From an uncultured Pseudomonadales bacterium (GTDB lineage: Bacteria; Patescibacteriota; Microgenomatia; UBA1400; MFAQ01): 64,000 bases of DNA. Of this stretch, positions 9,438-64,000 are shown piece after piece. The DNA lies in contig CAZENT010000001.1 in assembly GCA_964513845.1 (NCBI GenBank), positions 149,278-213,277 on the forward strand. The letters are read 5' to 3'. Below the pieces are notes generated by a model. That model had not been told where the DNA came from, did not search any database, and worked only from the letters and a program-made list of their open reading frames with translations. The first letter of the stretch is position 1. Each line of letters begins with the position of its first letter. The translations under genes were made by a program, and so were the position numbers.

Positions 9438-9703
9438 TAGAAAAGGGTTTTTTGTTTGGGTAATATTTCAAAATTATGCAAAAGATCTGGGACTTCAATT
9501 TTTTTAATTTTCGATGTATGGCCAGAAATTAGTGAAATTTGAGAGGGTGAAATGGAAAAATATTTGGCAAGGGACTTGATGATAGCGTCGTTGGCTCGGC
9601 CATCAACTGGAGGCTCTTTGACAGAAACAGCATAAGTATTCTGATCGATTTGAACCACCTTTTCCTGTTTCTTTTTGGGTTTGGCAATTATGGTTAGGAG
9701 CAT
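9437..9703 (-). CDS. DUF167 (YggU) family protein
   Basis: DGRANDAIIKSLAKYFSISPSQISLISGHTSKIKKIEV matches the YggU signature (dGkAN ... sG.tsr.K). Confidence 0.75.
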   Translation of the reverse strand: MLLTIIAKPKKKQEKVVQIDQNTYAVSVKEPPVDGRANDAIIKSLAKYFSISPSQISLISGHTSKIKKIEVPDLLHNFEILPKQKTLF

Positions 9704-9704
9704 A

Positions 9705-10367
9705 TTACCAATTGATGGGCTTCTGATTGTGAGCTATTAAATACTCGTTCGTTTGGCTAAAGGGGTGACTGCCAAAAAAACCATTGTAAGCAGAAAGGGG
9801 CGAGGGATGAGCTGATTTGATGACCAAATGTTTCTCCGTATCGATAAAGGCGCCTTTTTTCTGGGCATAGTTTCCCCAAAGAATAAAGACAAGATTGGAC
9901 CTCGATTCCGCAAGACGATGAATAATGGCGTCGGTAAATTGTTCCCAGCCTTTGTTTTGATGAGAACCTGCCTGATGAGCCCTGACAGTAAGAGTGGCAT
10001 TGAGAAGCAAGACCCCTTCTTTGACCCAGTGTTCCAAGTTGCCAGATTGAGGGCGGGCTTTACCGATGTCTGCGGTCAGCTCTTTATAAATGTTTTGTAG
10101 AGATGGCGGAAGTGCGACACCGTCCGGAACAGAAAAAGATAGACCGTGAGCCTGACCTGGGCCATGATAAGGATCTTGCCCAAGAATTACGACTCTAACC
10201 TTGTCGACCGGAAGACTGTCTAGAGCATTGAAAATATATTTGCCTGGCGGATAGACTTCTCCTTTTTTGTACTCTTCATGAAGATACTGAGAGAGAGATT
10301 GAAAATATGGCTTCTCAAACTCGTCCCCAAGCAAGGCTTTCCAGGTTTTTTCGAGCTTAACTTCCAT
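9705..10367 (-). CDS. ung: Uracil-DNA glycosylase (family 1)
   Basis: GQDPYHGPGQAHGLSFSV (water-activating loop) and the HPSPLSA motif. Confidence 0.9.
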   Translation of the reverse strand: MEVKLEKTWKALLGDEFEKPYFQSLSQYLHEEYKKGEVYPPGKYIFNALDSLPVDKVRVVILGQDPYHGPGQAHGLSFSVPDGVALPPSLQNIYKELTADIGKARPQSGNLEHWVKEGVLLLNATLTVRAHQAGSHQNKGWEQFTDAIIHRLAESRSNLVFILWGNYAQKKGAFIDTEKHLVIKSAHPSPLSAYNGFFGSHPFSQTNEYLIAHNQKPINW

Positions 10368-54718: not shown

Positions 54719-56101
54719 ATGGAAATTGACGCCAGTCATCTGTGGCAAGCCGTTTGTGGAGACCTTTCCGTGTCGATGTCTCAGGCCGGTTTCAATGGAT
54801 TCGTAAAACCTTGTTTTATAAGGACGGTGACTCCTATTGATAACGAGAGAATTATCGTAGAGTTAGCGGCGCCGACAGCGTATCATGTGCGCACAATTGA
54901 CGAAAAATATTTTAGTTCAATCAAGCAGTCGATGGAGAAGATCTCACATAAAAAATGTGACGTGGCTTTAATCGTCGTTGAAGCAATAAAGGAGGAGAAA
55001 GAAACTAAAACTAGCGCAAGATCTGAAAAAGAAGAAGCAAATATGAATTTGTTTGCCTCACCAGAACCAGATAAACAAGCCGGCAATAACTTAAATCCAA
55101 GATATTTGTTTGAAAATTATGTTGTTGGTAGTTCAAATCGATTAGCTTTTGCGGCCGGAAAAGCGGTGGTGGATTTCCCCGGAACAAGACACAATCCTTT
55201 GTTTATCTATGGAGGAGTAGGAGTTGGTAAAACTCACTTAATGCACGCCGTGGGCCATGAACTGGTAAAAAAAGGGGTTGGGAAGGTGGTTTATGTAACC
55301 AGTGAGCAGTTTACTAATGACTTAGTATCATCACTTCGCTCAAAAATGACAGATGCTTTTAAAAAGAAGTATCGTCAAGTTGGCGCTTTGTTGATTGACG
55401 ATGTGCAGTTCTTTGGCGGCAAAGACTCAACTCAAGAAGAGTTCTTCCACACTTTTAACGAGCTAACAAATAAGTCGGCTCAAATTGTGATGACTTCCGA
55501 TAGAAAGCCTCAAGATATTGAAGGTTTAGAAGACAGATTAAAAAGTCGCTTTTTGGGAGGAATGGCGGTAGATATCGGTTTGCCCGATTATGAAATGAGA
55601 CTCGCTATCTTGCGCCAGAAAGCTCAAGAAATTAAAGTAGAAGTGGAAGATGGTGCTTATGAGTTGATGGCTAACAACTTCAACACTAATGCACGTGAAT
55701 TAGAAGGCACTTTTGTTAAATTGGCAGTCGGAGCAAGCTTGGAAAATGGAGTGCTCACAAAAGAAATGGTGCAACAAACAATGGGTTTGCCGGCTAACTT
55801 TGTGAAGGAGATAAAAGTCAGACCGATCAAAGTAGTTTCGACGGTAGCTAAGTATTTTGATTATAGAAACAAAGATCTTCTGGGGACAAGCAGAAAGGCC
55901 GATCTGGTGGTGGCTCGACATATTGCGATGTTTCTTTTGCGCGATACTTTGAATATCCAACTGGAAAAAGTGGGGGAGATTATGGGTGGAAGAGATCACA
56001 CGACTGTGATGCACGCAGTGGAAAAAATGAAGGATGAAGTGAGTAATAATGCCGATGTACGGCGTAAAATAACGGCTATAAAACAAGCGTTATACACTTA
56101 A
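54719..56101 (+). CDS. dnaA: Chromosomal replication initiator DnaA
   Basis: AAA+ motifs GGVGVGKTHL and LLIDDVQF, plus the domain IV HTH DHTTVMHA. Confidence 0.95.
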   Translation: MEIDASHLWQAVCGDLSVSMSQAGFNGFVKPCFIRTVTPIDNERIIVELAAPTAYHVRTIDEKYFSSIKQSMEKISHKKCDVALIVVEAIKEEKETKTSARSEKEEANMNLFASPEPDKQAGNNLNPRYLFENYVVGSSNRLAFAAGKAVVDFPGTRHNPLFIYGGVGVGKTHLMHAVGHELVKKGVGKVVYVTSEQFTNDLVSSLRSKMTDAFKKKYRQVGALLIDDVQFFGGKDSTQEEFFHTFNELTNKSAQIVMTSDRKPQDIEGLEDRLKSRFLGGMAVDIGLPDYEMRLAILRQKAQEIKVEVEDGAYELMANNFNTNARELEGTFVKLAVGASLENGVLTKEMVQQTMGLPANFVKEIKVRPIKVVSTVAKYFDYRNKDLLGTSRKADLVVARHIAMFLLRDTLNIQLEKVGEIMGGRDHTTVMHAVEKMKDEVSNNADVRRKITAIKQALYT

Positions 56102-56407
56102 ATATCCACATCTTATCCCCAGGACGTGGATAACTTTCGAAAAAGTGGATTAGTAGGGGGATAAGCACAAGGAGTGTTGATAAAGATACAAAGTTATCCA
56201 GAAAATTATCAACAGAAAATGTTAGTTGTTCTGAAAATAATAGTCACAACGGTTGAATAAATGATTAAAAAGTATGGATATAACAAACGAAGATAAATTA
56301 ACAACAAGAGTAATAGGCAAGAGCCACGCTTATAATCAACAAATCAACACGACCTATTACTATCATTACTATTTTTTAGATTAATATAATAATTAGAAGG
56401 AAATTCT
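56102..56407. other. oriC: cluster of at least 7 DnaA-box-like 9-mers followed by an AT-rich DNA-unwinding element
   Basis: ATATCCACA, TTATCCCCA, GTGGATAAC, TGTTGATAA, TTATCCAGA, TTATCAACA and others within 56102-56214. AT-rich stretch 56340-56400. A perfect TGTGGATAA box also lies upstream of dnaA at 54664-54672. Confidence 0.75.
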
Positions 56408-57517
56408 ATGAAAATAATTGTTCAATCAGGAGAGCTTAAAAAATATCTGGGAATAGTAAGCAGGGGAGTGAGTAGCAGGCCTCAGTTACCAATATTGTCG
56501 GGAGTTCTTCTAAAAGCGGAAAATGATGAGGTGAGTTTAGTGGCAACCGATTTGGAAGTGAGTTTTTGGTTGAGTCTTTCGGCGAAGGTAGAAGAAGAGG
56601 GTGAAGTGGTGGTTCCGGCAAAACTATTTTCTGAGCTGGTTTCAGGTTTTCCTTCCGGCAACGTAATGATAACTGTGGAAAAACACGTGGTAAAAATTGA
56701 AGTTGATGGAATTGTATCGGAAATAGTGGGCCAGGGAGCTGAAGACTTCCCCAGTATCCCCAGAGCAAGTAAGGCTCAAGTAGTTCTTCGAAGCGGAGAC
56801 TTTAGACAAAAAGTGGATAGAGTGTGTGTGAGTGCGGCCAGAGACGACACTCGACCAGTGTTGACTGGAGTACTTTGGGAAATTAATGAAGAAAAAGTGT
56901 CTTTGGTGGCGACTGACGGATATCGATTGTCGGTGGATAAGTTGACTTTGTCAAAAACAGAACTAGAAAAAGAAACGAGATTAATTTTACCTGCAAGATC
57001 TTTGCAAGAAATTTCAAAAATGTTGGGTGAAACCGGTGTTGATGTTTTTTCTTTGGAGTTTAGTAAGGAAAATCAACAAGTCATTTTTAAAGTGGGAGAG
57101 ATTGAGGTAACTTCGAGATTGATTGCAGGCGAGTTCCCGCCTTATCAACAGATTATGCCGAATACTTACTCGTCGAGAGCTGTCTTTGGTAAAGCAGAGA
57201 TACTAGAAGGCGTCAAAAGAGCTAATTTGTTTGCTCGAGATAATGCCAATATTATTAAGTTGCAAATGGAAAAAGATGGTGTGGTGGTTCGAGCTGAGAG
57301 TTCTCAGATTGGTACAAGTGTAAGTAAGGTAGAGGCAGTGGTTGAGGGTGAAGAATTAACAGTGGCGTTTAACGCAAGATATTTACTGGATTATCTGGCC
57401 AGCAGTACTTCGGAAAAAGTAGTATGGGAAACAGAGGGAGAACTGAAACCCAGTGTTTTTCGTAACGAAGATGAAGAAACTTGGGTGCAGGTGGTAATGC
57501 CTGTTAGGGTGCAGTAA
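56408..57517 (+). CDS. dnaN: DNA polymerase III beta sliding clamp
   Basis: Three-domain clamp (369 aa) in the standard position after dnaA. Confidence 0.9.
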   Translation: MKIIVQSGELKKYLGIVSRGVSSRPQLPILSGVLLKAENDEVSLVATDLEVSFWLSLSAKVEEEGEVVVPAKLFSELVSGFPSGNVMITVEKHVVKIEVDGIVSEIVGQGAEDFPSIPRASKAQVVLRSGDFRQKVDRVCVSAARDDTRPVLTGVLWEINEEKVSLVATDGYRLSVDKLTLSKTELEKETRLILPARSLQEISKMLGETGVDVFSLEFSKENQQVIFKVGEIEVTSRLIAGEFPPYQQIMPNTYSSRAVFGKAEILEGVKRANLFARDNANIIKLQMEKDGVVVRAESSQIGTSVSKVEAVVEGEELTVAFNARYLLDYLASSTSEKVVWETEGELKPSVFRNEDEETWVQVVMPVRVQ

Positions 57518-57976: not shown

Positions 57977-60721
57977 TTATGGAACAACTGCCCACATTCG
58001 GAATAGTTTGTATGATGTATCAAGAGTGTGAATATAGTTTTCACCCATCCATGGATCCATAGTGGTTATTTGATTTCCTTCGTGGGCGACGATGACCAGA
58101 AGATGCCCACACCATCCTCCACCACAAGCCATATCACCTGTTGCTAAAATCATGCCACAGTTCGAGAGAACGCTGTCAGCTTCGGCAAGATCTGATCCGA
58201 TATCGGTAACTGAAAGTCCACTTTCGGAAAGAATTTTTAAAGAGTTAAAATTGTCTGACCCACAAGAAACGTAAGGTATTTTGCCATCATAGACACGTGG
58301 TGGAGAATTGCTATCCCAGTAAACATATCCTCCGATTGAGTGTTGCCAATGCCAGACATCAGTAACATTTGAAGTTACACCAAAGCCGTTTAAAATCATG
58401 GTCATAGAAGCACTACTACAACCTGATGACCCAATTCGACAACTGCCAGCTGGTGAACAGTTTTTACAAAAAACGCCTGCCCATTCGGGGTCTCTTTGTG
58501 AAATAAAAATTCCTTCGGTATTAGCACAACCTGTGGCAGAGGTACGAGTTTTTGGAATTGATTCGAGTTGAACAAGAGTAGAAATAAGGGGGGCGACAAC
58601 AATGGAAGAAACATAAAAGAAGAAACCTACAAGTACGCCTAAAACAAGAGTGCCCACAGCAGAACTGGCGGCGGTTGTTGTGGCGGAACCGATTCCGGAA
58701 AAAAATTTGGATACTGCTGAAACAGCACCAACAACAGGAACGATGAGAACATCTCTAGTTTTAATTTTTTCACCATAGACAGAAACAGCTACTTTTTGAA
58801 CGACATTGACAGTTCCTTTTATGACAGAGAGAATAATGTCTCCAACAAGCCAGATTATAGCAGGAATAGCACCAACTCCTGTTGCTGCAAGACCAAATTT
58901 TGCACCAATACTGACTGCCAGTTTGGATAGAGCTTTCCCAAGACCTTTTTTTGTAAGTTCGGTGGCGATTTTCGTTCCGGCTTTAATGGCTGCTTTTCCT
59001 GCCGTAGAAGAAAGAATTTTTTTAACAACATAGTCACCTACTTTTTTGCCAACCCACGATCTAACGGCACCAATAGGATCTTCAACTATTCGAAAAATAT
59101 TGCCAAAAACAACGGGGAATTTGTCAGATATTTTTGAGAAAAATTTTGTGACAGGTTGAGTTAATTTTGTCCAACCAGTGATAATTTTATTAATATTTTT
59201 TCCTATAGGAGTGTTTGCGAATTTTCCAAGCACAACAGGCACTTTGGTGATTTCTTTTCCTAAAGGTGAGTTGGCAATTCTTCTGATCTGAGTGCCGGCT
59301 GCATCAAATAAATCCTTATTGGATTTGAAAAGTTTACCAAGTTCTGATTCGGGATTGTTTTTTGCGTAGAGACGGGCTTTGGCAAGTAAGGTTGGGGTGA
59401 GCCCTTTGCCGTATAAAAGGATAGCTTGGGGAGAAAGATCGGGATCTTGAGTTTTGGAATTAGTTACTAAAGCAGCGGACATCTCGGCTTGATAGCCGGC
59501 GTGAGCATTTAGCTCTCCAGGCATGTTGTGACGAATCGCTGCTTCTAGAAGCGCTGCGTCGTCGAGAGAAGAAAATAGGCGCGGCTGAACACCATTGTTT
59601 TCGAGATTGGAATGAATGGAGATAAAGACATTGTTGGCGAGCTCAATTCGATCGAGAGTGTCAGGGTCTTTTGATAGTCTTGTTTGACTGTCTTTATTAA
59701 ATTCTTGAAAAGCGACAGCTTGATTGTCAACAAAGACATCGAGTTGTTTGGGAAGATTTTCTATTTTTTGAGCAAGTTTTTGATTTGTTTCGGTGAGAGT
59801 TTTAATCTGAATAAGTTTGATTTCCAGATCTACGACTATATTTTGTTTGACTTCTTCTGCGTATTTTAAGAGAATAATTTCGTTTTCAGCAATTTGAGCA
59901 GTTAGGGTGGCTGCTTGTGTGGTTTGAGTATTGACCGCGTCGTAGACAGAGTGAACAAAATTTGAAGAAATTTTAGATAGATTTTTTTGATCTTCGGCTG
60001 ATAAATCTGAGATGTTAATCAATAGTGAGGCGGATTGAATGGCAACATCAATATTGGTAACACAAATGGAGTTTAGCTCCACAGCCTCTTCGATGATTCT
60101 GTTTTGCGCTTCTACAGATAACTTTAAAAAGCTTTCATGAGTAAGAGCAACTTCTCTCACTGCTGCGTAAGAAGCAGCTAAAGCAGTTTTTTTTGAGTCT
60201 GATTTTGGAGAACCAAGCGAGATTAATACTTTATCTGCGTCTTGAAACTTTTCTCCTCTGGCTTGTCTTTTTTGTTTGTTAAGAAGAGCTTTTTGCTTTA
60301 TCTTTGAATGGGCAATAGCTATTTTGACCTGTTCGGCAACCGATCTCTGAGAGTTTGATTTTATCTCTTCGCTTTCGAGAAGGGCTTTGTTTTTCTCGTA
60401 CTCAGCAACTAAAGACTCGAGTTCTGGGGGAATGGAGGCTTCGGGTTTTGTTTCCTCTTCTTCGTTAAGAGAATTGAGTTTAATTATTAGCTTTTCGATT
60501 TCACCTGAGCCGGCAATATATTTTTGAAAAGAGTAGACGTCGATTATTCTAGGATCAATACGATCATCAGGGAAAAATTTAGGCCAGTATCCTTCATACA
60601 ACGAATAAGCTTTGTTTAGAATTTTTAAAATTCTAGAATTTAGTTTGTCTTCTGAAACAGCCAAATACGAAAGAGAGTTCTTTAGATCCTTAATGTCTTG
60701 CGAATAATCATTTTTTGCCAT
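57977..60721 (-). CDS. T4SS-associated membrane protein with a C-terminal papain-like cysteine peptidase domain (C39-like/CHAP-like); PrgK/TcpG-type cell-wall hydrolase analog
   Basis: Coiled-coil N-domain (~560 aa), amphipathic Lys-rich repeats, 2 or more TMs near residues 600-700, and a C-terminal domain with candidate catalytic Cys (GSSGCSSASMTMIL) and His (GGWCGHLLVIVAHEG). Confidence 0.5.
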   Translation of the reverse strand: MAKNDYSQDIKDLKNSLSYLAVSEDKLNSRILKILNKAYSLYEGYWPKFFPDDRIDPRIIDVYSFQKYIAGSGEIEKLIIKLNSLNEEEETKPEASIPPELESLVAEYEKNKALLESEEIKSNSQRSVAEQVKIAIAHSKIKQKALLNKQKRQARGEKFQDADKVLISLGSPKSDSKKTALAASYAAVREVALTHESFLKLSVEAQNRIIEEAVELNSICVTNIDVAIQSASLLINISDLSAEDQKNLSKISSNFVHSVYDAVNTQTTQAATLTAQIAENEIILLKYAEEVKQNIVVDLEIKLIQIKTLTETNQKLAQKIENLPKQLDVFVDNQAVAFQEFNKDSQTRLSKDPDTLDRIELANNVFISIHSNLENNGVQPRLFSSLDDAALLEAAIRHNMPGELNAHAGYQAEMSAALVTNSKTQDPDLSPQAILLYGKGLTPTLLAKARLYAKNNPESELGKLFKSNKDLFDAAGTQIRRIANSPLGKEITKVPVVLGKFANTPIGKNINKIITGWTKLTQPVTKFFSKISDKFPVVFGNIFRIVEDPIGAVRSWVGKKVGDYVVKKILSSTAGKAAIKAGTKIATELTKKGLGKALSKLAVSIGAKFGLAATGVGAIPAIIWLVGDIILSVIKGTVNVVQKVAVSVYGEKIKTRDVLIVPVVGAVSAVSKFFSGIGSATTTAASSAVGTLVLGVLVGFFFYVSSIVVAPLISTLVQLESIPKTRTSATGCANTEGIFISQRDPEWAGVFCKNCSPAGSCRIGSSGCSSASMTMILNGFGVTSNVTDVWHWQHSIGGYVYWDSNSPPRVYDGKIPYVSCGSDNFNSLKILSESGLSVTDIGSDLAEADSVLSNCGMILATGDMACGGGWCGHLLVIVAHEGNQITTMDPWMGENYIHTLDTSYKLFRMWAVVP

Positions 60722-60726
60722 ATCAG

Positions 60727-62574
60727 TTACAAAGATTCTGCTTGTTGTTTGCGTGCTTCGAGTACTTCTGAAGGCTTGGTAGTGGAAAGAGCGTGTTCGT
60801 CTGGGGAGGAGATTACTTTGATGGCAACATGATTTTGTCCGGCAAAGAAAATACCTTCTCCGACACCGGCTGAAACTAAAAGTTGTTTTTCTCCTTGGGA
60901 GAGATAGAAAACTTCGGCTATTTGATTGATAGCGGCTGAAGATTGTTTGAGAAGGAATTTGAGGGCAGAGTTGGTAATGATGGCTTTACCATAGGGAGAG
61001 GCTAAAAAGTCGTCAACGTTTTGAGAGATGACAGTAACACCAAGATAGTATTTACGGGCACGCTTGACAAAACCTTGGAGAATCTTGGCAGAGTCTTCGT
61101 AGCGCATAAGATACCAGGCCTCATCTACAATGAGCATGCGTTTACGAAGATTTTTGCGTATTTCTGTCCAGACAAAGTCAAGAATCATAAACATAACGAT
61201 AGGACGAATCTCATCAGCAAGATCGCGCATGGAAAAAACTGTAATAGGAGCATCGATATCGATATTTGATTGCTGATCGAAAGTGCCTTTGATACCGCCC
61301 ATGACGTATCGCTCTAGTCTGGCAGCTAGTACCTTGGCTGTTTGATCTTCCATACCGATGATGGCACGGTAAAGATCTTCCATACGAGGAGGTTCTTGGG
61401 TGTGTGTGGCAGGATCATCAGTGATGTTTTTCTGACGATAGGTGAGAACGAGGGCGCGATTCATGGTGGCCTCTTCCATGGGGGACATGGCACCAATCAT
61501 GATTTTAAGTAAGGAAATGAGGAAAAGATATTTGTAGCCCATTTCATCTTCAGTGCTTTCTAAAGGCCTCGCAATTTGAAACGGATTAATTTTGTGGGGA
61601 GAGTTGGCAGAAAAAGAAATGTAGTTTCCGCCTACGGCTTTGGTGACCATTTCATATTCGTTTTCCGGATCGAGAATGATGATTTGGGTGTCAAACATTA
61701 AAGAGCGAAGAATTTCTAGCTTAACGGCATAGGACTTACCGGCACCGGCTGTGGCCAGAACGAGCATGTTGGCGTTTTCGAGAGAGAAACGATCGAAAAT
61801 AATGAGAGAGTCGTTGTGAGCATTGATTCCGTAAAGAATACCTTGGTTGTCTGAAAGTTCGGAGCTAGTGAAGGGAAAGGTGGTGGATAGAGCAGTTGTG
61901 TCCATGTTTCTTGTGATCATCAGCTTGTCTTTGCAGTATGGAAGAGTAGTTTTGAAGGCATCCTCCATAGAGAGTGAGGCGACTTTGCTGATAATGAGCA
62001 GAGAAGCGAGCATGCTTTGAACCTGAGAAGTGACAGTGTTGAGCTCTTTTTCGGACTCGGCAGAGATACTGATGTAAAGAGAAAACTGGAAAAAGCGTTC
62101 GGCACCTTTGACTAGCTGTGCCTGAAGTGTTTTAGCGTCTTCTAAAGCCGCTTCGGTGGCGGCTTGGGGAATACGACCTCTTTCGATGTCAGTGTTAATC
62201 TCGGCTTCCATTTCGGCCAGGCGACGCCTGAGGCTATCAAGAGTGTCTTTGGAGTCACTAGGATAGATGTACATGGAGATATCAAGAGAGTGATTGAAGT
62301 TTACGAGAGGAGCAAGCCAGTTGGCGGAAACATAACGAGGGTAACCAGTGACAAAAAGAGTGCGAATGTAGTTGTCGTCAATCTTGATAAAAGAAAAATC
62401 AACTTCGATGGAGGAGGGAGCTAAAACATCTTGAATTGAAGCGGCGTTGGTAGTGTCTTTGATGGCCGAAAGAGGAGCTCTGGGCTTTTCTTCAGTTGAT
62501 GTGACAGGAGCCGCCGAGACAACGGGTGGTGTTTCGGTCTTTTTGGCACCAAGAGAAAAGAGATTTAACCCCAT
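60727..62574 (-). CDS. virB4: VirB4/TrbE/CagE-family T4SS ATPase (C-terminal about three quarters)
   Basis: CagE_TrbE_VirB region (YIRTLFVTGYPRYV), Walker A LATAGAGKSY, Walker B MLIVDEAWYLM, and DPENEYEM. Confidence 0.8.
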   Translation of the reverse strand: MGLNLFSLGAKKTETPPVVSAAPVTSTEEKPRAPLSAIKDTTNAASIQDVLAPSSIEVDFSFIKIDDNYIRTLFVTGYPRYVSANWLAPLVNFNHSLDISMYIYPSDSKDTLDSLRRRLAEMEAEINTDIERGRIPQAATEAALEDAKTLQAQLVKGAERFFQFSLYISISAESEKELNTVTSQVQSMLASLLIISKVASLSMEDAFKTTLPYCKDKLMITRNMDTTALSTTFPFTSSELSDNQGILYGINAHNDSLIIFDRFSLENANMLVLATAGAGKSYAVKLEILRSLMFDTQIIILDPENEYEMVTKAVGGNYISFSANSPHKINPFQIARPLESTEDEMGYKYLFLISLLKIMIGAMSPMEEATMNRALVLTYRQKNITDDPATHTQEPPRMEDLYRAIIGMEDQTAKVLAARLERYVMGGIKGTFDQQSNIDIDAPITVFSMRDLADEIRPIVMFMILDFVWTEIRKNLRKRMLIVDEAWYLMRYEDSAKILQGFVKRARKYYLGVTVISQNVDDFLASPYGKAIITNSALKFLLKQSSAAINQIAEVFYLSQGEKQLLVSAGVGEGIFFAGQNHVAIKVISSPDEHALSTTKPSEVLEARKQQAESL

Positions 62575-62597
62575 GATTAAGTATAACCGAAAAGGGG

Positions 62598-63254
62598 TTA
62601 TTTAGGGATTAAAGAAGGGTTGATTTGAGCTGGGCTGAGTGTGGTTGAGCCTTGGTTGTAGATAGTGTAGAAAAAAGTAACAAGATCGCTGGTTGTTAGT
62701 TGGGAAGCTTTGAGCCCTAAACGAGCAAACTGTCGAATTAAATGATCGCGACGAGGATAGAGAACAGTAGAAGCTTTTTCTTCGATATACACCAGGTCAA
62801 AAGGAGGTTTTTGAGGAGCTTTGGCAAAAGGATTGAAGTTGGATTTGGACAGGCCAAGTTCGATAGCTGAAAAAGGAATAATCACATAAAACTTTTTTTC
62901 CAAAACACGGTTTTCTTTGACAAGGGATTTGACAAACTGGCGATAAGCCAGAAGCTGTTCCTTAATTTTTTGGGAAGAGACAGACTGAATACGGGTATCG
63001 ATGAGATTGAGGTAGTCGGAAATATTTTTTCTCTGGGAACGGATAAGGATTTGAACAGGGAAAGAAAGAGAGTTTAGAAGGCCAGCGTAGGCATAAATCG
63101 TAGCATCTTGTTCCTCTTCTGAGAGAAGATTGAAGTTGATGGCGGTGGTTTTGAGAACCAAGGCGGCTGAACCATCTTTGAGAAAAACGAGATGATCTTT
63201 GATGGCATAGATATCGAGATGTTCTTGGGTAGAGGCTTTGATGTTGTCGGGCAT
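62598..63254 (-). CDS. VirB4 N-terminal domain encoded as a separate ORF (split VirB4), or a frameshifted pseudogene fragment
   Basis: IKDHLVFLKDGSAALVLKTTAINFNLLSEEEQDATIYAYAGLLNSLSFPVQILIRSQRK matches the VirB4 extreme N-terminal region. It ends 23 nt before the VirB4 ATPase ORF, in a different frame. Confidence 0.5.
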   Translation of the reverse strand: MPDNIKASTQEHLDIYAIKDHLVFLKDGSAALVLKTTAINFNLLSEEEQDATIYAYAGLLNSLSFPVQILIRSQRKNISDYLNLIDTRIQSVSSQKIKEQLLAYRQFVKSLVKENRVLEKKFYVIIPFSAIELGLSKSNFNPFAKAPQKPPFDLVYIEEKASTVLYPRRDHLIRQFARLGLKASQLTTSDLVTFFYTIYNQGSTTLSPAQINPSLIPK

Positions 63255-63259
63255 TTTCT

Positions 63260-64000
63260 TTATTGAGCTTGGATTTTAAGAGGTTTGACAATGTCTCCGG
63301 TAAGTTCGAGAGAGTAAGGAGCAAAGGAAAAGCCTTCTTTTTCGGCGAGAATTTGGAAAAGACCAGAGTCAAGAGGCCTGGCGAACATAAACTGCCCAAG
63401 TTTGTTGCTCTTGGTGGCACGAAGAGTGAGATTGTCTTTTTTGATTTCCACCATAACGCTGTCGAGGATATGTCCTGAAGGGGTGAGAGTCAAACCAACA
63501 AGAGTGTTGGGCGTGGTAGGAGTAAAAGGAATGGGGAGGTTGGTGGTGGGAGCCGGAGCTTGGGCAACAGGGGCTGTTTGAATAGCTGGAGCCGGCTCGG
63601 GTGGGGCAATTGGAGTAGTAATGGGTTCTGGTGAAGGAGTTGGTTGAGTAGCCGAAGGAATTTCTTGGGGTGGAGTTTGAGCCGGAGCTTGGGCAACAGG
63701 GGCTGTTTGAATAGCTGGAGCAGCGGGCTGGTCCGGAGTAACCGTTTTTGAGGCTTCGGTAATCTCGATACGAGCATTGGTGACGGGCTGAGCGATTGCT
63801 AGATTATTTTCTTTTGTGGGGACGGCAGTTTCGGTGCTTGATGGGCTGGCGACAGTTCTTTTCCAAGAATATTGGGTGGGTGAGTAGATAGATTTGATGA
63901 AAGCGATTAGCCAGACATCAAGAGAGCGACCTTGAACGGGAACGAAGGCTATGCCAACACCAAGTAGAAGGAAGGCAAAGACGATGGGGTATTTGAAGAA
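63260..64000 (-). CDS. Partial CDS (5' end off-window): N-terminal TM segment, Pro/Ala/Thr-rich linker with a 129-nt tandem repeat, and a C-terminal beta-sandwich-like domain
   Basis: Manual translation of the minus-strand frame continuous with ORF 63260-63493 is open to the window edge: ...FFKYPIVFAFLLGVGIAFVPVQGRSLDVWLIAF ... PAAPAIQTAPVAQAPA ... EPAPAIQTAPVAQAPAPTTNLPIPFTPTTPNTLVG-LTLTPSGHILDSV.... The track ORF 63490-63777 is the off-frame L/P-rich reading of the same repeat. Confidence 0.6.
   Translation of the reverse strand, partial: FFKYPIVFAFLLLGVGIAFVPVQGRSLDVWLIAFIKSIYSPTQYSWKRTVASPSSTETAVPTKENNLAIAQPVTNARIEITEASKTVTPDQPAAPAIQTAPVAQAPAQTPPQEIPSATQPTPSPEPITTPIAPPEPAPAIQTAPVAQAPAPTTNLPIPFTPTTPNTLVGLTLTPSGHILDSVMVEIKKDNLTLRATKSNKLGQFMFARPLDSGLFQILAEKEGFSFAPYSLELTGDIVKPLKIQAQ
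63550..63721. repeat. Two copies of an identical 43-nt core (129-nt period) encoding the APAIQTAPVAQAPA linker repeat
   Basis: GAGCCGGAGCTTGGGCAACAGGGGCTGTTTGAATAGCTGGAGC at 63550-63592 and 63679-63721. Confidence 0.8.

What the first reader, a model, noticed from the sequence alone, without database searches (positions are those of the whole stretch)
63260..64000. Unannotated partial gene with Pro/Ala-rich 129-nt tandem repeat; the ORF track reports the wrong frame
The track lists a 95-aa L/P/K-rich ORF (63490-63777) and a 77-aa ORF (63260-63493). Manual translation shows that the frame of the 77-aa ORF stays open upstream through both repeat copies to the window edge. It encodes a TM segment (IVFAFLLGVGIAFVPV), a PAAPAIQTAPVAQAPA-type linker repeated twice, and a beta-rich C-terminal domain. 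This is the likely real gene, with its N-terminus beyond 64000. The reported 95-aa ORF is an off-frame artefact of the repeat. PA/PT linkers plus an Ig-like C-domain suggest a surface-exposed T4SS-associated protein (pilus tip/adhesin-like).
Basis: seen in the sequence. Interest (0 to 1): 0.5.

Follow-up and report, generated by a model that had tools for sequence, protein, structure and literature searches.

The report
Edge-truncated T4SS PrgI/VirB3 gene

Summary
The minus-strand frame ending at TAA 63262-63260 is open to base 64000. Comparison with a 96%-identical ortholog (30 synonymous versus 11 non-synonymous codon changes) and codon usage both support it. The 95-aa L/P/K ORF is an off-frame artefact.

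The "129-nt tandem repeat" is overstated. It is one exact 43-nt (14-aa) segment present twice, 129 nt apart, and the 86 nt between the copies are not repeated.

It lies directly upstream of a TrsD-like gene and virB4, next to dnaN and dnaA. This is the published Patescibacteria T4SS layout. The same fused architecture and gene order recur in most of the 79 related Microgenomates-type loci.

It is therefore the inner-membrane VirB3 subunit, not a pilus tip or adhesin. VirB3 topology predicts a cytoplasmic tail, so surface exposure is unproven. Interest is low to modest.

The parts
63260..64000 (-). 3' 741 nt (246 codons plus TAA) of a 294-codon prgI/virB3-like gene; the first 48 codons lie beyond the window edge
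   Evidence: Open frame. P0001 (294 aa) matches the window-encoded part at 100%. Start ATG and a GAGGA Shine-Dalgarno-like site are seen in ortholog L001 9111-9995. Purifying selection and codon usage favour this frame.
63857..64000 (-). In-window part (residues 49-96) of the PrgI/VirB3 module: TM2 (about 63935-63991) and the conserved C-terminal amphipathic helix (about 63884-63922)
   Evidence: Pfam PF12666 covers residues 8-90 of P0001 at 32.1 bits, above the gathering score of 27. AF2 helices are H25-43, H48-67 and H75-87. Columns are nearly invariant across 68 homologs.
63755..63856 (-). Semi-conserved unstructured segment (residues 97-130; ET..PT.ENNL..Q.VSNA.IEIT motif)
   Evidence: Alignment consensus; pLDDT below 50.
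63542..63754 (-). Hypervariable Pro/Thr/Ala/Gln-rich linker (residues 131-201)
   Evidence: No conserved columns and many length differences in alignment A1. Linker length is 47-350 aa (median 151) in 75 orthologs; composition is P 15.7%, T 11.7%, A 10.2%. Predicted disordered.
63679..63721 (-). Copy 1 of the exact 43-nt direct repeat (encodes APAIQTAPVAQAPA)
   Evidence: the repeat finder family D1, 100% identity, spacing 129 nt.
63550..63592 (-). Copy 2 of the exact 43-nt direct repeat
   Evidence: In L001 both copies share three substitutions relative to the window (CCA>CCG, GCT>GTT, ATT>ACT), which indicates concerted evolution.
63263..63541 (-). Conserved C-terminal domain (residues 202-294): NLPIPFTPTTPNTL motif followed by a 7-stranded transthyretin/CarboxypepD_reg-like beta-sandwich
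63490..63777 (-). 95-aa L/P/K-rich ORF: off-frame artefact of the Pro/Ala/Thr/Gln-coding linker
   Evidence: Listed. Codon-usage log-odds -49.5 against +58.5 for the PrgI frame. The two off-frames give 6/35 and 5/34 synonymous/non-synonymous changes.
62598..63254 (-). Downstream partner gene: TrsD/TraC-like protein (a separately encoded VirB4 N-terminal domain), 218 aa, starting 5 nt after the prgI stop
   Evidence: NCBIfam hits to VirB4 N-terminal regions and TrsD (E 6e-8 to 3.6e-4, all below curated cut-offs). PF26593 TraC-like on record. Same position in most of the 79 related loci.
60727..62574 (-). virB4 ATPase (615 aa), CD1110 family
   Evidence: NF045971 373.7 bits, above the cut-off of 325. 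PF19044 E 1.1e-28.

Best explanation
The region is the 3' five-sixths of the prgI (virB3-type) gene of the chromosomal, origin-proximal type IV secretion system of a Microgenomates-group (Collierbacteria-like, Patescibacteria/CPR) bacterium. The window edge removes its first 48 codons.

Shown:
- The protein has an N-terminal PrgI/VirB3 module of two TM helices plus a conserved amphipathic helix.
- A hypervariable Pro/Thr/Ala/Gln linker follows. In this strain the linker carries a recent in-frame duplication of a 14-aa segment.
- A strongly conserved C-terminal transthyretin/CarboxypepD_reg-like beta-sandwich ends the protein.
- The gene is followed by a TrsD-like gene and virB4.

Inferred from what is established for VirB3 (R388 TrwM, pCF10 PrgI):
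- The hairpin sits in the cytoplasmic membrane.
- Its conserved N-tail and C-helix bind the VirB4 N-terminal domain, which here is the separate TrsD-like protein, and anchor the ATPase hexamer.
- Its TM helices help form the pilin-recruitment site.

Inferred, weaker:
- There are exactly two TM helices, the positive-inside bias favours N-in/C-in, and VirB3 termini are cytoplasmic. The linker therefore leaves the membrane on the cytoplasmic face.
- I take the beta-sandwich to be a tethered cytoplasmic binding module at the base of the machine, one per VirB3 copy. I put this at about 55%, against about 45% for an extracytoplasmic location.

The repeat has no demonstrated function. It is ordinary linker instability with gene conversion between the copies.
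For: Frame and gene:
- Open frame.
- 30 synonymous versus 11 non-synonymous codon changes, with 31 of 42 differences at codon position 3.
- Codon-usage log-odds of +108 bits.
- P0001 (294 aa) matches the window-encoded part at 100%, and 241 homologs were found.
- The start codon is seen in L001.

Identity:
- PF12666 PrgI at 32.1 bits, above the gathering score of 27.
- Homologs are named 'PrgI family protein' by NCBI.
- AF2 helices H25-43, H48-67 and H75-87 match the VirB3 description in PMC12857230.

Context:
- TrsD-like gene, then virB4 (NF045971 373.7 bits).
- dnaN and dnaA lie next to the cluster, and five PF18895 pilin genes lie upstream in ortholog L001.
- This matches the Patescibacteria T4SS described in PMC12102498.

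Conservation of the architecture:
- The PrgI N-domain and the C-domain lie in the same ORF in about 72 of 79 related loci. These are Collier-, Woese-, Gottesman- and Daviesbacteria and Microgenomates-group records. Almost all are followed by the TrsD-like gene and virB4.
- 116 of the best 150 representatives that carry the C-domain also carry the PrgI module.

C-terminal domain:
- pLDDT 90.
- Foldseek E 5.9e-6 to carboxypeptidase D.
- Relatives pass PF13620.

Topology:
- K+R counts of 2.3 / 0.64 / 3.4 for N-tail / loop / after TM2.
- No third TM segment.
Against: - The window fragment alone hits no Pfam or NCBIfam model. The PrgI call rests on the full-length database protein, and its score is only modestly above threshold.
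- At 294 aa the protein is far larger than the 10-15 kDa given for VirB3.
- No binding partner, stoichiometry or topology was tested.
- The 144 nt beyond the window were not read from this exact contig.
Confidence: 0.88

Rival explanations
1. The identity is the same (the VirB3/PrgI subunit), but the linker and beta-sandwich lie outside the cytoplasmic membrane. A wall-spanning Pro/Thr-rich tether would present a CarboxypepD_reg-like domain at the cell wall or surface. There it could scaffold the pilus base in place of the missing VirB8/VirB10-type components, or contact the host cell. This requires an N-out/C-out or otherwise non-canonical VirB3 topology.
For: - The fold family is overwhelmingly extracytoplasmic: CnaB pilins, the carboxypeptidase D TTR domain, SlaB and the SusC NTE.
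- Sequence-related multi-domain CarboxypepD_reg proteins have signal-peptide or lipoprotein-like N-termini.
- The linker is P/T/A/S/Q-rich and its length varies from 47 to 350 aa, like wall-spanning regions.
- There is no Cys in the C-domain.
- VirB8 homologues are reported as undetected or possibly replaced in Patescibacteria.
Against: - There are exactly two TM helices and no third one in 116 representatives and 75 orthologs.
- The K+R bias favours N-in/C-in.
- VirB3 termini are cytoplasmic, and VirB3-VirB4 fusions exist.
- Both the N-tail and the post-TM2 helix are nearly invariant, as expected if both bind the cytoplasmic TrsD-like protein or VirB4.
Confidence: 0.4
2. One reading: a surface-exposed pilus-tip or adhesin-like T4SS accessory protein with a single TM anchor.
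For: A beta-sandwich resembling Gram-positive pilin CnaB domains, a Pro-rich linker, and T4SS neighbours.
Against: - The N-terminus is a PrgI/VirB3 module with two TM helices.
- There is no signal peptide, sortase motif or VirB5-like helical domain.
- The gene occupies the canonical virB3 slot upstream of virB4 in most of the 79 related loci.
- The pilin genes of the system are separate PF18895 genes.
Confidence: 0.05
3. The 95-aa L/P/K-rich ORF (63490-63777) is the real gene, and the long frame is open by chance.
For: It has an ATG start and is listed by the ORF finder.
Against: - Codon-usage log-odds are -49.5 for this ORF's frame, against +58.5 for the overlapping PrgI frame.
- The two off-frames give 6/35 and 5/34 synonymous/non-synonymous changes.
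- 241 homologs support the other frame end to end.
Confidence: 0.01

Closest known systems
PrgI of Enterococcus pCF10 / VirB3 (TrwM of R388, VirB3 of Agrobacterium); Pfam PF12666
   Same: - The Pfam PrgI model is passed.
- Two TM helices plus a C-terminal alpha-helix (description in PMC12857230).
- The gene lies directly upstream of the VirB4 ATPase genes.
   Different: - PrgI is 117 aa and VirB3 proteins are 10-15 kDa with short termini. This protein is 294 aa, and orthologs reach about 550 aa.
- It has a disordered linker of 47-350 aa and one or two C-terminal beta-sandwich domains.
- The only VirB3 fusion described in the papers I read is to VirB4.
Patescibacteria (CPR) T4SS as described by Quinonero-Coronel et al. 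2025 (PMC12102498) and Wang et al. 2023 (PMC10633639)
   Same: - The component set matches: VirB4, TrsD, PrgI/VirB3 and an array of VirB2-like pilins.
- The location next to dnaA, dnaN and rnpA matches.
- The class is Microgenomatia-type.
   Different: - Those papers do not mention a C-terminal linker or domain on PrgI.
- The paper reports that only 22.6% of Microgenomatia VirB3 homologues lie near virB4. The loci retrieved here almost all show prgI, the TrsD-like gene and virB4 adjacent.
CarboxypepD_reg (PF13620) / transthyretin-like / CnaB prealbumin-fold domains
   Same: - phmmer links the domain to multi-domain CarboxypepD_reg proteins, and PrgI relatives pass PF13620.
   Different: - This protein's own domain does not reach any Pfam gathering score. 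The best hit is NOMO1-like at E 0.024.
- It is attached to a two-TM membrane hairpin whose C-terminus is predicted to be cytoplasmic.

Membership tests
PrgI / VirB3 family (PF12666) | Match to the family HMM above the curated gathering score | tested here: met
   P0001 (matches the window-encoded part at 100%) scores 32.1 bits against a gathering score of 27, over residues 8-90. The truncated window fragment alone gives no hit.
PrgI / VirB3 family (PF12666) | Two transmembrane helices followed by a C-terminal alpha-helix | tested here: met
   AF2 helices H25-43, H48-67 and H75-87; feature list from PMC12857230.
PrgI / VirB3 family (PF12666) | Gene located immediately next to virB4 | tested here: met
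   prgI stop at 63260, TrsD-like gene at 62598-63254, virB4 at 60727-62574. The same order is seen in most of the 79 related loci.
PrgI / VirB3 family (PF12666) | Small protein (10-15 kDa) with short cytoplasmic N- and C-terminal extensions | tested here: not met
   294 aa, with a C-terminal extension of about 200 aa. This makes it a variant architecture and does not exclude homology of the N-terminal module.
PrgI / VirB3 family (PF12666) | Binds VirB4 and anchors it to the membrane | not testable with these tools
   No multimer prediction or experiment was available.
Patescibacteria chromosomal T4SS (MPF-FATA-related) | VirB4 ATPase of the monoderm (CD1110-like) type | tested here: met
   NF045971 373.7 bits against a cut-off of 325.
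Patescibacteria chromosomal T4SS (MPF-FATA-related) | Separate TrsD-like protein (VirB4 N-terminal domain homologue) next to virB4 | tested here: inconclusive
   NCBIfam TrsD/TraD E 3.6e-4 at 20.4 bits, far below the cut-off of 200. Hits to VirB4 N-terminal regions reach E 6e-8. PF26593 TraC-like is on record.
Patescibacteria chromosomal T4SS (MPF-FATA-related) | Array of VirB2-like pilin genes and proximity to dnaA/dnaN | tested here: met
   The ortholog L001 has five PF18895 genes upstream, outside the window, and dnaN, dnaA, rnpA, yidD and yidC downstream. Window ORFs of identical length (369 and 460 aa) lie at 56408-57517 and 54719-56101.
CarboxypepD_reg / transthyretin-like domain (PF13620 clan) | Seven-stranded prealbumin-like beta-sandwich fold | tested here: met
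   [not shown]
CarboxypepD_reg / transthyretin-like domain (PF13620 clan) | Match to the PF13620 HMM above the gathering score | tested here: not met
   No PF13620 hit for this protein; the best clan hit is PF22902 at E 0.024, 14.8 bits against 27. PrgI-fused relatives do pass: P0132 64.8 bits and P0139 34.0 bits against 32.3.
   The N-terminus MAIQQHPLPQDISSYRFRLIGDM leads into the PrgI hairpin. The C-terminus is ...KPLKIQAQ with no sorting motif. There are no adhesin or VirB5 family hits.

The most novel reading that the evidence does not exclude
Across the Microgenomates group, the normally tiny VirB3 subunit has become a long tethered protein. Its conserved beta-sandwich may be displayed outside the membrane, which implies a non-canonical VirB3 topology. 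There it could act as a wall-spanning scaffold or host-contact element of the T4SS, which is essential in the one Patescibacteria species tested, and so replace the undetected VirB8/VirB10-type parts. If it is cytoplasmic instead, it could act as a built-in substrate receptor in a system with no coupling protein nearby.
Probability: 0.3. Interest if true: 0.55.

Novelty: new variant of a known kind. Interest (0 to 1): 0.28.

Why it matters
As a scan finding it is mainly a clean-up. The supposed tandem repeat and the competing ORF are minor or artefactual.

The one point of wider interest is the architecture. In this large uncultivated lineage the VirB3 subunit consistently carries a hypervariable linker and a highly conserved CarboxypepD_reg-like domain. 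The papers on the Patescibacteria T4SS that I could read do not mention this. That T4SS is essential for epibiotic growth in the one species tested, and its function is unknown. A conserved extra module on a core subunit is therefore a concrete handle for asking what the machine binds and on which side of the membrane.

Tried and rejected
- Tandem Repeats Finder on 62500-64000 at minimum score 30 found nothing, so the tandem-array reading was dropped.
- Pfam and NCBIfam scans of the 246-aa window fragment gave no hits. The full-length database protein was needed.
- An exact look-up of P0001's encoding contig found nothing on record.
- An exact 54-nt pattern found no match in genome contigs. 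The 144 nt beyond the window therefore come from the 96%-identical ortholog L001 and from P0001, which matches the window-encoded residues at 100%, not from the contig itself.
- The listing of cluster members gave no name or accession for P0001.
- A homolog search with the N-terminal 100 aa alone returned only 14 short fragments. It could not show which other C-terminal fusions PrgI proteins carry.
- The A1 profile against PDB sequences gave only a weak TatB hit (E 0.0076) over TM, amphipathic helix and low-complexity tail. I judged it compositional.
- Foldseek with the full-length model was dominated by the beta-sandwich, so it gave no structural test of the VirB3 hairpin against TrwM.
- The primary VirB3 topology paper (Mossey 2010, PMC2876495) is not in the library. 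Topology is cited from reviews instead.
- An HMM of the C-domain found no second copy in the window or in L001.
- A literature search for a VirB3 or PrgI carrying a carboxypeptidase regulatory-like domain found nothing.
- The 86-nt remainder of the '129-nt unit' was tested for similarity and rejected.

Full report
**Observation**

Reading the minus strand from base 64000 down to the TAA at 63262-63260 gives 247 codons with a single, terminal stop. The translation begins FFKYPIVFAFLLLGVGIAFVPVQGRSLDVWLIAFIKSIYSPTQYSWKR. It runs through a Pro/Ala/Thr/Gln-rich stretch that contains PAAPAIQTAPVAQAPA and later PAPAIQTAPVAQAPA. It ends in a beta-rich segment...KPLKIQAQ*.

The ORF lister does not report ORFs that run off the window. 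It therefore shows only a 77-aa tail from an internal TTG (63260-63493) and a 95-aa L/P/K-rich ORF in another frame (63490-63777).

The repeat is smaller than claimed:
- Tandem Repeats Finder finds no array.
- The repeat finder finds one exact 43-nt segment twice, at 63679-63721 and 63550-63592, 129 nt apart.
- The other 86 nt of each supposed 129-nt unit agree at 31/86. That level is reached by 773 of 5000 shuffles.

**Which frame is real**

The neighbouring 218-aa protein was looked up by exact sequence. This returned a 43.6-kb contig (L001) whose ortholog of the target is 96% identical.
- Over the 741 shared nucleotides there are 42 differences, 31 of them at codon position 3 of the proposed frame.
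- That frame shows 30 synonymous and 11 non-synonymous codon changes. The other two frames show 6/35 and 5/34, and they contain 3-5 stops.
- A codon-usage log-odds score trained on ten long ORFs of the window gives +108 bits for the proposed frame and -83 and -113 for the others.
- Inside the span of the 95-aa ORF the score is +58.5 for the proposed frame against -49.5 for the 95-aa frame.

The 95-aa ORF is an off-frame artefact.

**The whole gene**

A search of the protein collection returned P0001. It is 294 aa, matches the window-encoded 246 residues at 100%, and comes from an NCBI contig of 236 kb. A further 240 homologs were found, nearly all 264-362 aa and carrying Pfam PF12666. Several are named 'PrgI family protein' from Microgenomates or Collierbacteria MAGs.

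The window lacks the first 48 residues, MAIQQHPLPQDISSYRFRLIGDMTLKQFASLGICVVFAIIAYSIPLPF. In L001 the ATG is preceded by GAGGAAG. All homologs start MAIQQHP.

I could not retrieve the exact contig. The missing 144 nt are therefore inferred from P0001 and from the ortholog.

**Anatomy**

- Full-length P0001 passes the Pfam PrgI model at 32.1 bits, against a gathering score of 27, over residues 8-90. The truncated fragment alone hits nothing.
- AlphaFold2 on a 68-sequence alignment gives helices 25-43 and 48-67 (a TM hairpin with the conserved loop PLPFFFKYP) and helix 75-87. Residues 89-202 have low confidence. Residues 216-293 form a beta-sandwich.
- The alignment shows three zones. Residues 1-96 are nearly invariant. 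Residues 97-130 carry a semi-conserved motif. After that comes a linker with no conserved columns and many length changes, then a strongly conserved C-terminal part starting NLPIPFTPTTPNTLVGL.
- Modelled alone, the C-terminal 96 residues reach mean pLDDT 90 with seven strands.
- Foldseek gives E 5.9e-6 to Drosophila carboxypeptidase D.
- The domain itself reaches no Pfam gathering score. The best hit is NOMO1-like at E 0.024.
- An exhaustive phmmer search found 1244 representatives at E of 0.001 or better. These include multi-domain CarboxypepD_reg proteins and PrgI proteins with two such domains that do pass PF13620.

**Context**

- The target's stop is followed after 5 nt by a 218-aa ORF. 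That ORF matches VirB4 N-terminal regions and TrsD weakly (E 6e-8 to 3.6e-4) and has PF26593 TraC-like on record.
- Next comes a 615-aa VirB4 ATPase of the CD1110 family (373.7 bits against a cut-off of 325).
- After that come 914-aa and 155-aa ORFs, then dnaN and dnaA.
- In ortholog L001, five T4SS_pilin (PF18895) genes and four unassigned large genes lie upstream, beyond the window.

This is the Patescibacteria T4SS described by Quinonero-Coronel et al. 2025: VirB4, TrsD, PrgI/VirB3 and VirB2-like pilin arrays, often next to dnaA and dnaN (PMC12102498). Its components, including PrgI, are essential for epibiotic growth of Ca. Southlakia epibionticum (Wang et al. 2023, as cited).

**Distribution**

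A scan of one genome per GTDB species returned 143 relatives, of which 79 loci were kept.
- In about 72 of these the PrgI module and the C-domain lie in one ORF, with a linker of 47-350 aa (median 151). Almost all are followed by the TrsD-like gene and virB4.
- Named records are Collierbacteria, Woesebacteria, Gottesmanbacteria, Daviesbacteria and Microgenomates-group bacteria, which are Patescibacteria.
- Of the best 150 representatives that carry the C-domain, 116 also carry the PrgI module. Most of the rest are short fragments, and three are generic secreted multi-CarboxypepD_reg proteins.

**How it probably works**

By homology the N-terminal module is the VirB3 subunit. Reviews describe VirB3 as having two TM helices, a C-terminal helix and short cytoplasmic termini. 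It binds VirB4 1:1, tethers the ATPase hexamer to the membrane, and contributes to the pilin-recruitment site. The near-invariance of both the N-tail and the post-TM2 helix here fits a conserved cytoplasmic partner. That partner is most plausibly the TrsD-like protein, which is a split-off VirB4 N-terminal domain. This step is inferred, not shown.

The extension is the unusual part.
- There are exactly two TM helices. A hydrophobicity scan finds no third one in 75 orthologs or 116 representatives.
- Mean K+R counts are 2.3 in the N-tail, 0.64 in the loop and 3.4 in the 30 residues after TM2.
- These results, together with VirB3 topology, place the linker and sandwich on the cytoplasmic side.
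- Against this, the fold family and the P/T-rich variable linker are typical of extracytoplasmic proteins.

I cannot resolve this with the tools available. I lean to a cytoplasmic tethered binding module (about 55:45) and flag it as inference. Either way, 'pilus tip/adhesin' is not supported as the identity of the protein.

**The repeat**

The two 43-nt copies are identical in the window. In L001 they differ from each other at 4 positions, yet both share three changes relative to the window (CCA>CCG, GCT>GTT, ATT>ACT; PAIQ becomes PVTQ). This pattern means gene conversion between the copies after the two strains diverged. More distant homologs (about 75% identity) do not have the motif. It is a recent in-frame duplication in an unconstrained linker, with no evidence of function.

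**Novelty and verdict**

The gene and the system are known and catalogued. The finding is essentially a window-edge truncation plus an ORF-lister limitation.

What the papers I could search do not describe is a VirB3/PrgI with a long linker and a conserved CarboxypepD_reg-like domain. They describe VirB3 as small and fused, if at all, only to VirB4. I therefore rate it a new variant of a known kind. Overall interest is low to modest, and rises only if the extra domain's location and partner prove informative about the function of the Patescibacteria T4SS.

Noticed in passing
window 60727-63254 (-): VirB4 is encoded in two pieces. A 218-aa TrsD/TraC-like protein resembles the VirB4 N-terminal domain (62598-63254). 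A 615-aa ATPase of the CD1110 family follows (60727-62574), separated by 23 nt.
   Followed up: partly
window 57977-60721 (-): A 914-aa ORF directly downstream of virB4 has a cluster of hydrophobic segments at about aa 609-710 and a weak Peptidase_C39_2-like match at aa 764-891 (E 0.0025, below threshold). It is a candidate divergent VirB6 and/or VirB1-like wall hydrolase. VirB6 is reported as scarce in Microgenomatia.
   Followed up: partly
window 54719-57517 (+): ORFs of 460 and 369 aa match in length and synteny the dnaA and dnaN genes of ortholog L001. The T4SS cluster therefore abuts the presumed replication origin, as published for Patescibacteria.
   Followed up: partly
window 63550-63592 and 63679-63721; L001 about 9536-9578 and 9665-9707: The two 43-nt repeat copies evolve in concert. 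They are identical in the window. In the 96%-identical ortholog both carry the same three substitutions, plus four private differences.
   Followed up: yes
loci L005, L008, L012, L017-L018, L028, L035, L038-L039, L051 and others: Many species-representative records that carry this Microgenomates-type prgI, trsD-like and virB4 locus are titled 'uncultured Pseudomonadales', 'uncultured Gammaproteobacteria', 'Spirochaetia', 'Bathyarchaeia archaeon' or 'Anaerolineales'. The record titles look like placeholders or mis-assignments.
   Followed up: no
loci L005-L083 versus PMC12102498: The 2025 survey states that only 22.6% of Microgenomatia VirB3 homologues lie near virB4. Almost all loci retrieved here with the extended PrgI have prgI, the TrsD-like gene and virB4 adjacent. 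The extended PrgI may be under-detected by the profiles used there, or other small proteins may be over-counted.
   Followed up: no
P0001 residues 97-130 and 202-215 (window 63755-63856 and 63500-63541): Two conserved but unstructured or low-confidence motifs flank the variable linker: ET..PT.ENNL..Q.VSNA.IEIT and NLPIPFTPTTPNTL. They look like short linear binding motifs.
   Followed up: no
alignment A1 versus PDB sequences: The family profile gives a weak hit to TatB (E 0.0076) across TM helix, amphipathic helix and low-complexity tail. It is probably compositional, although TatB's similar tail is cytoplasmic.
   Followed up: no
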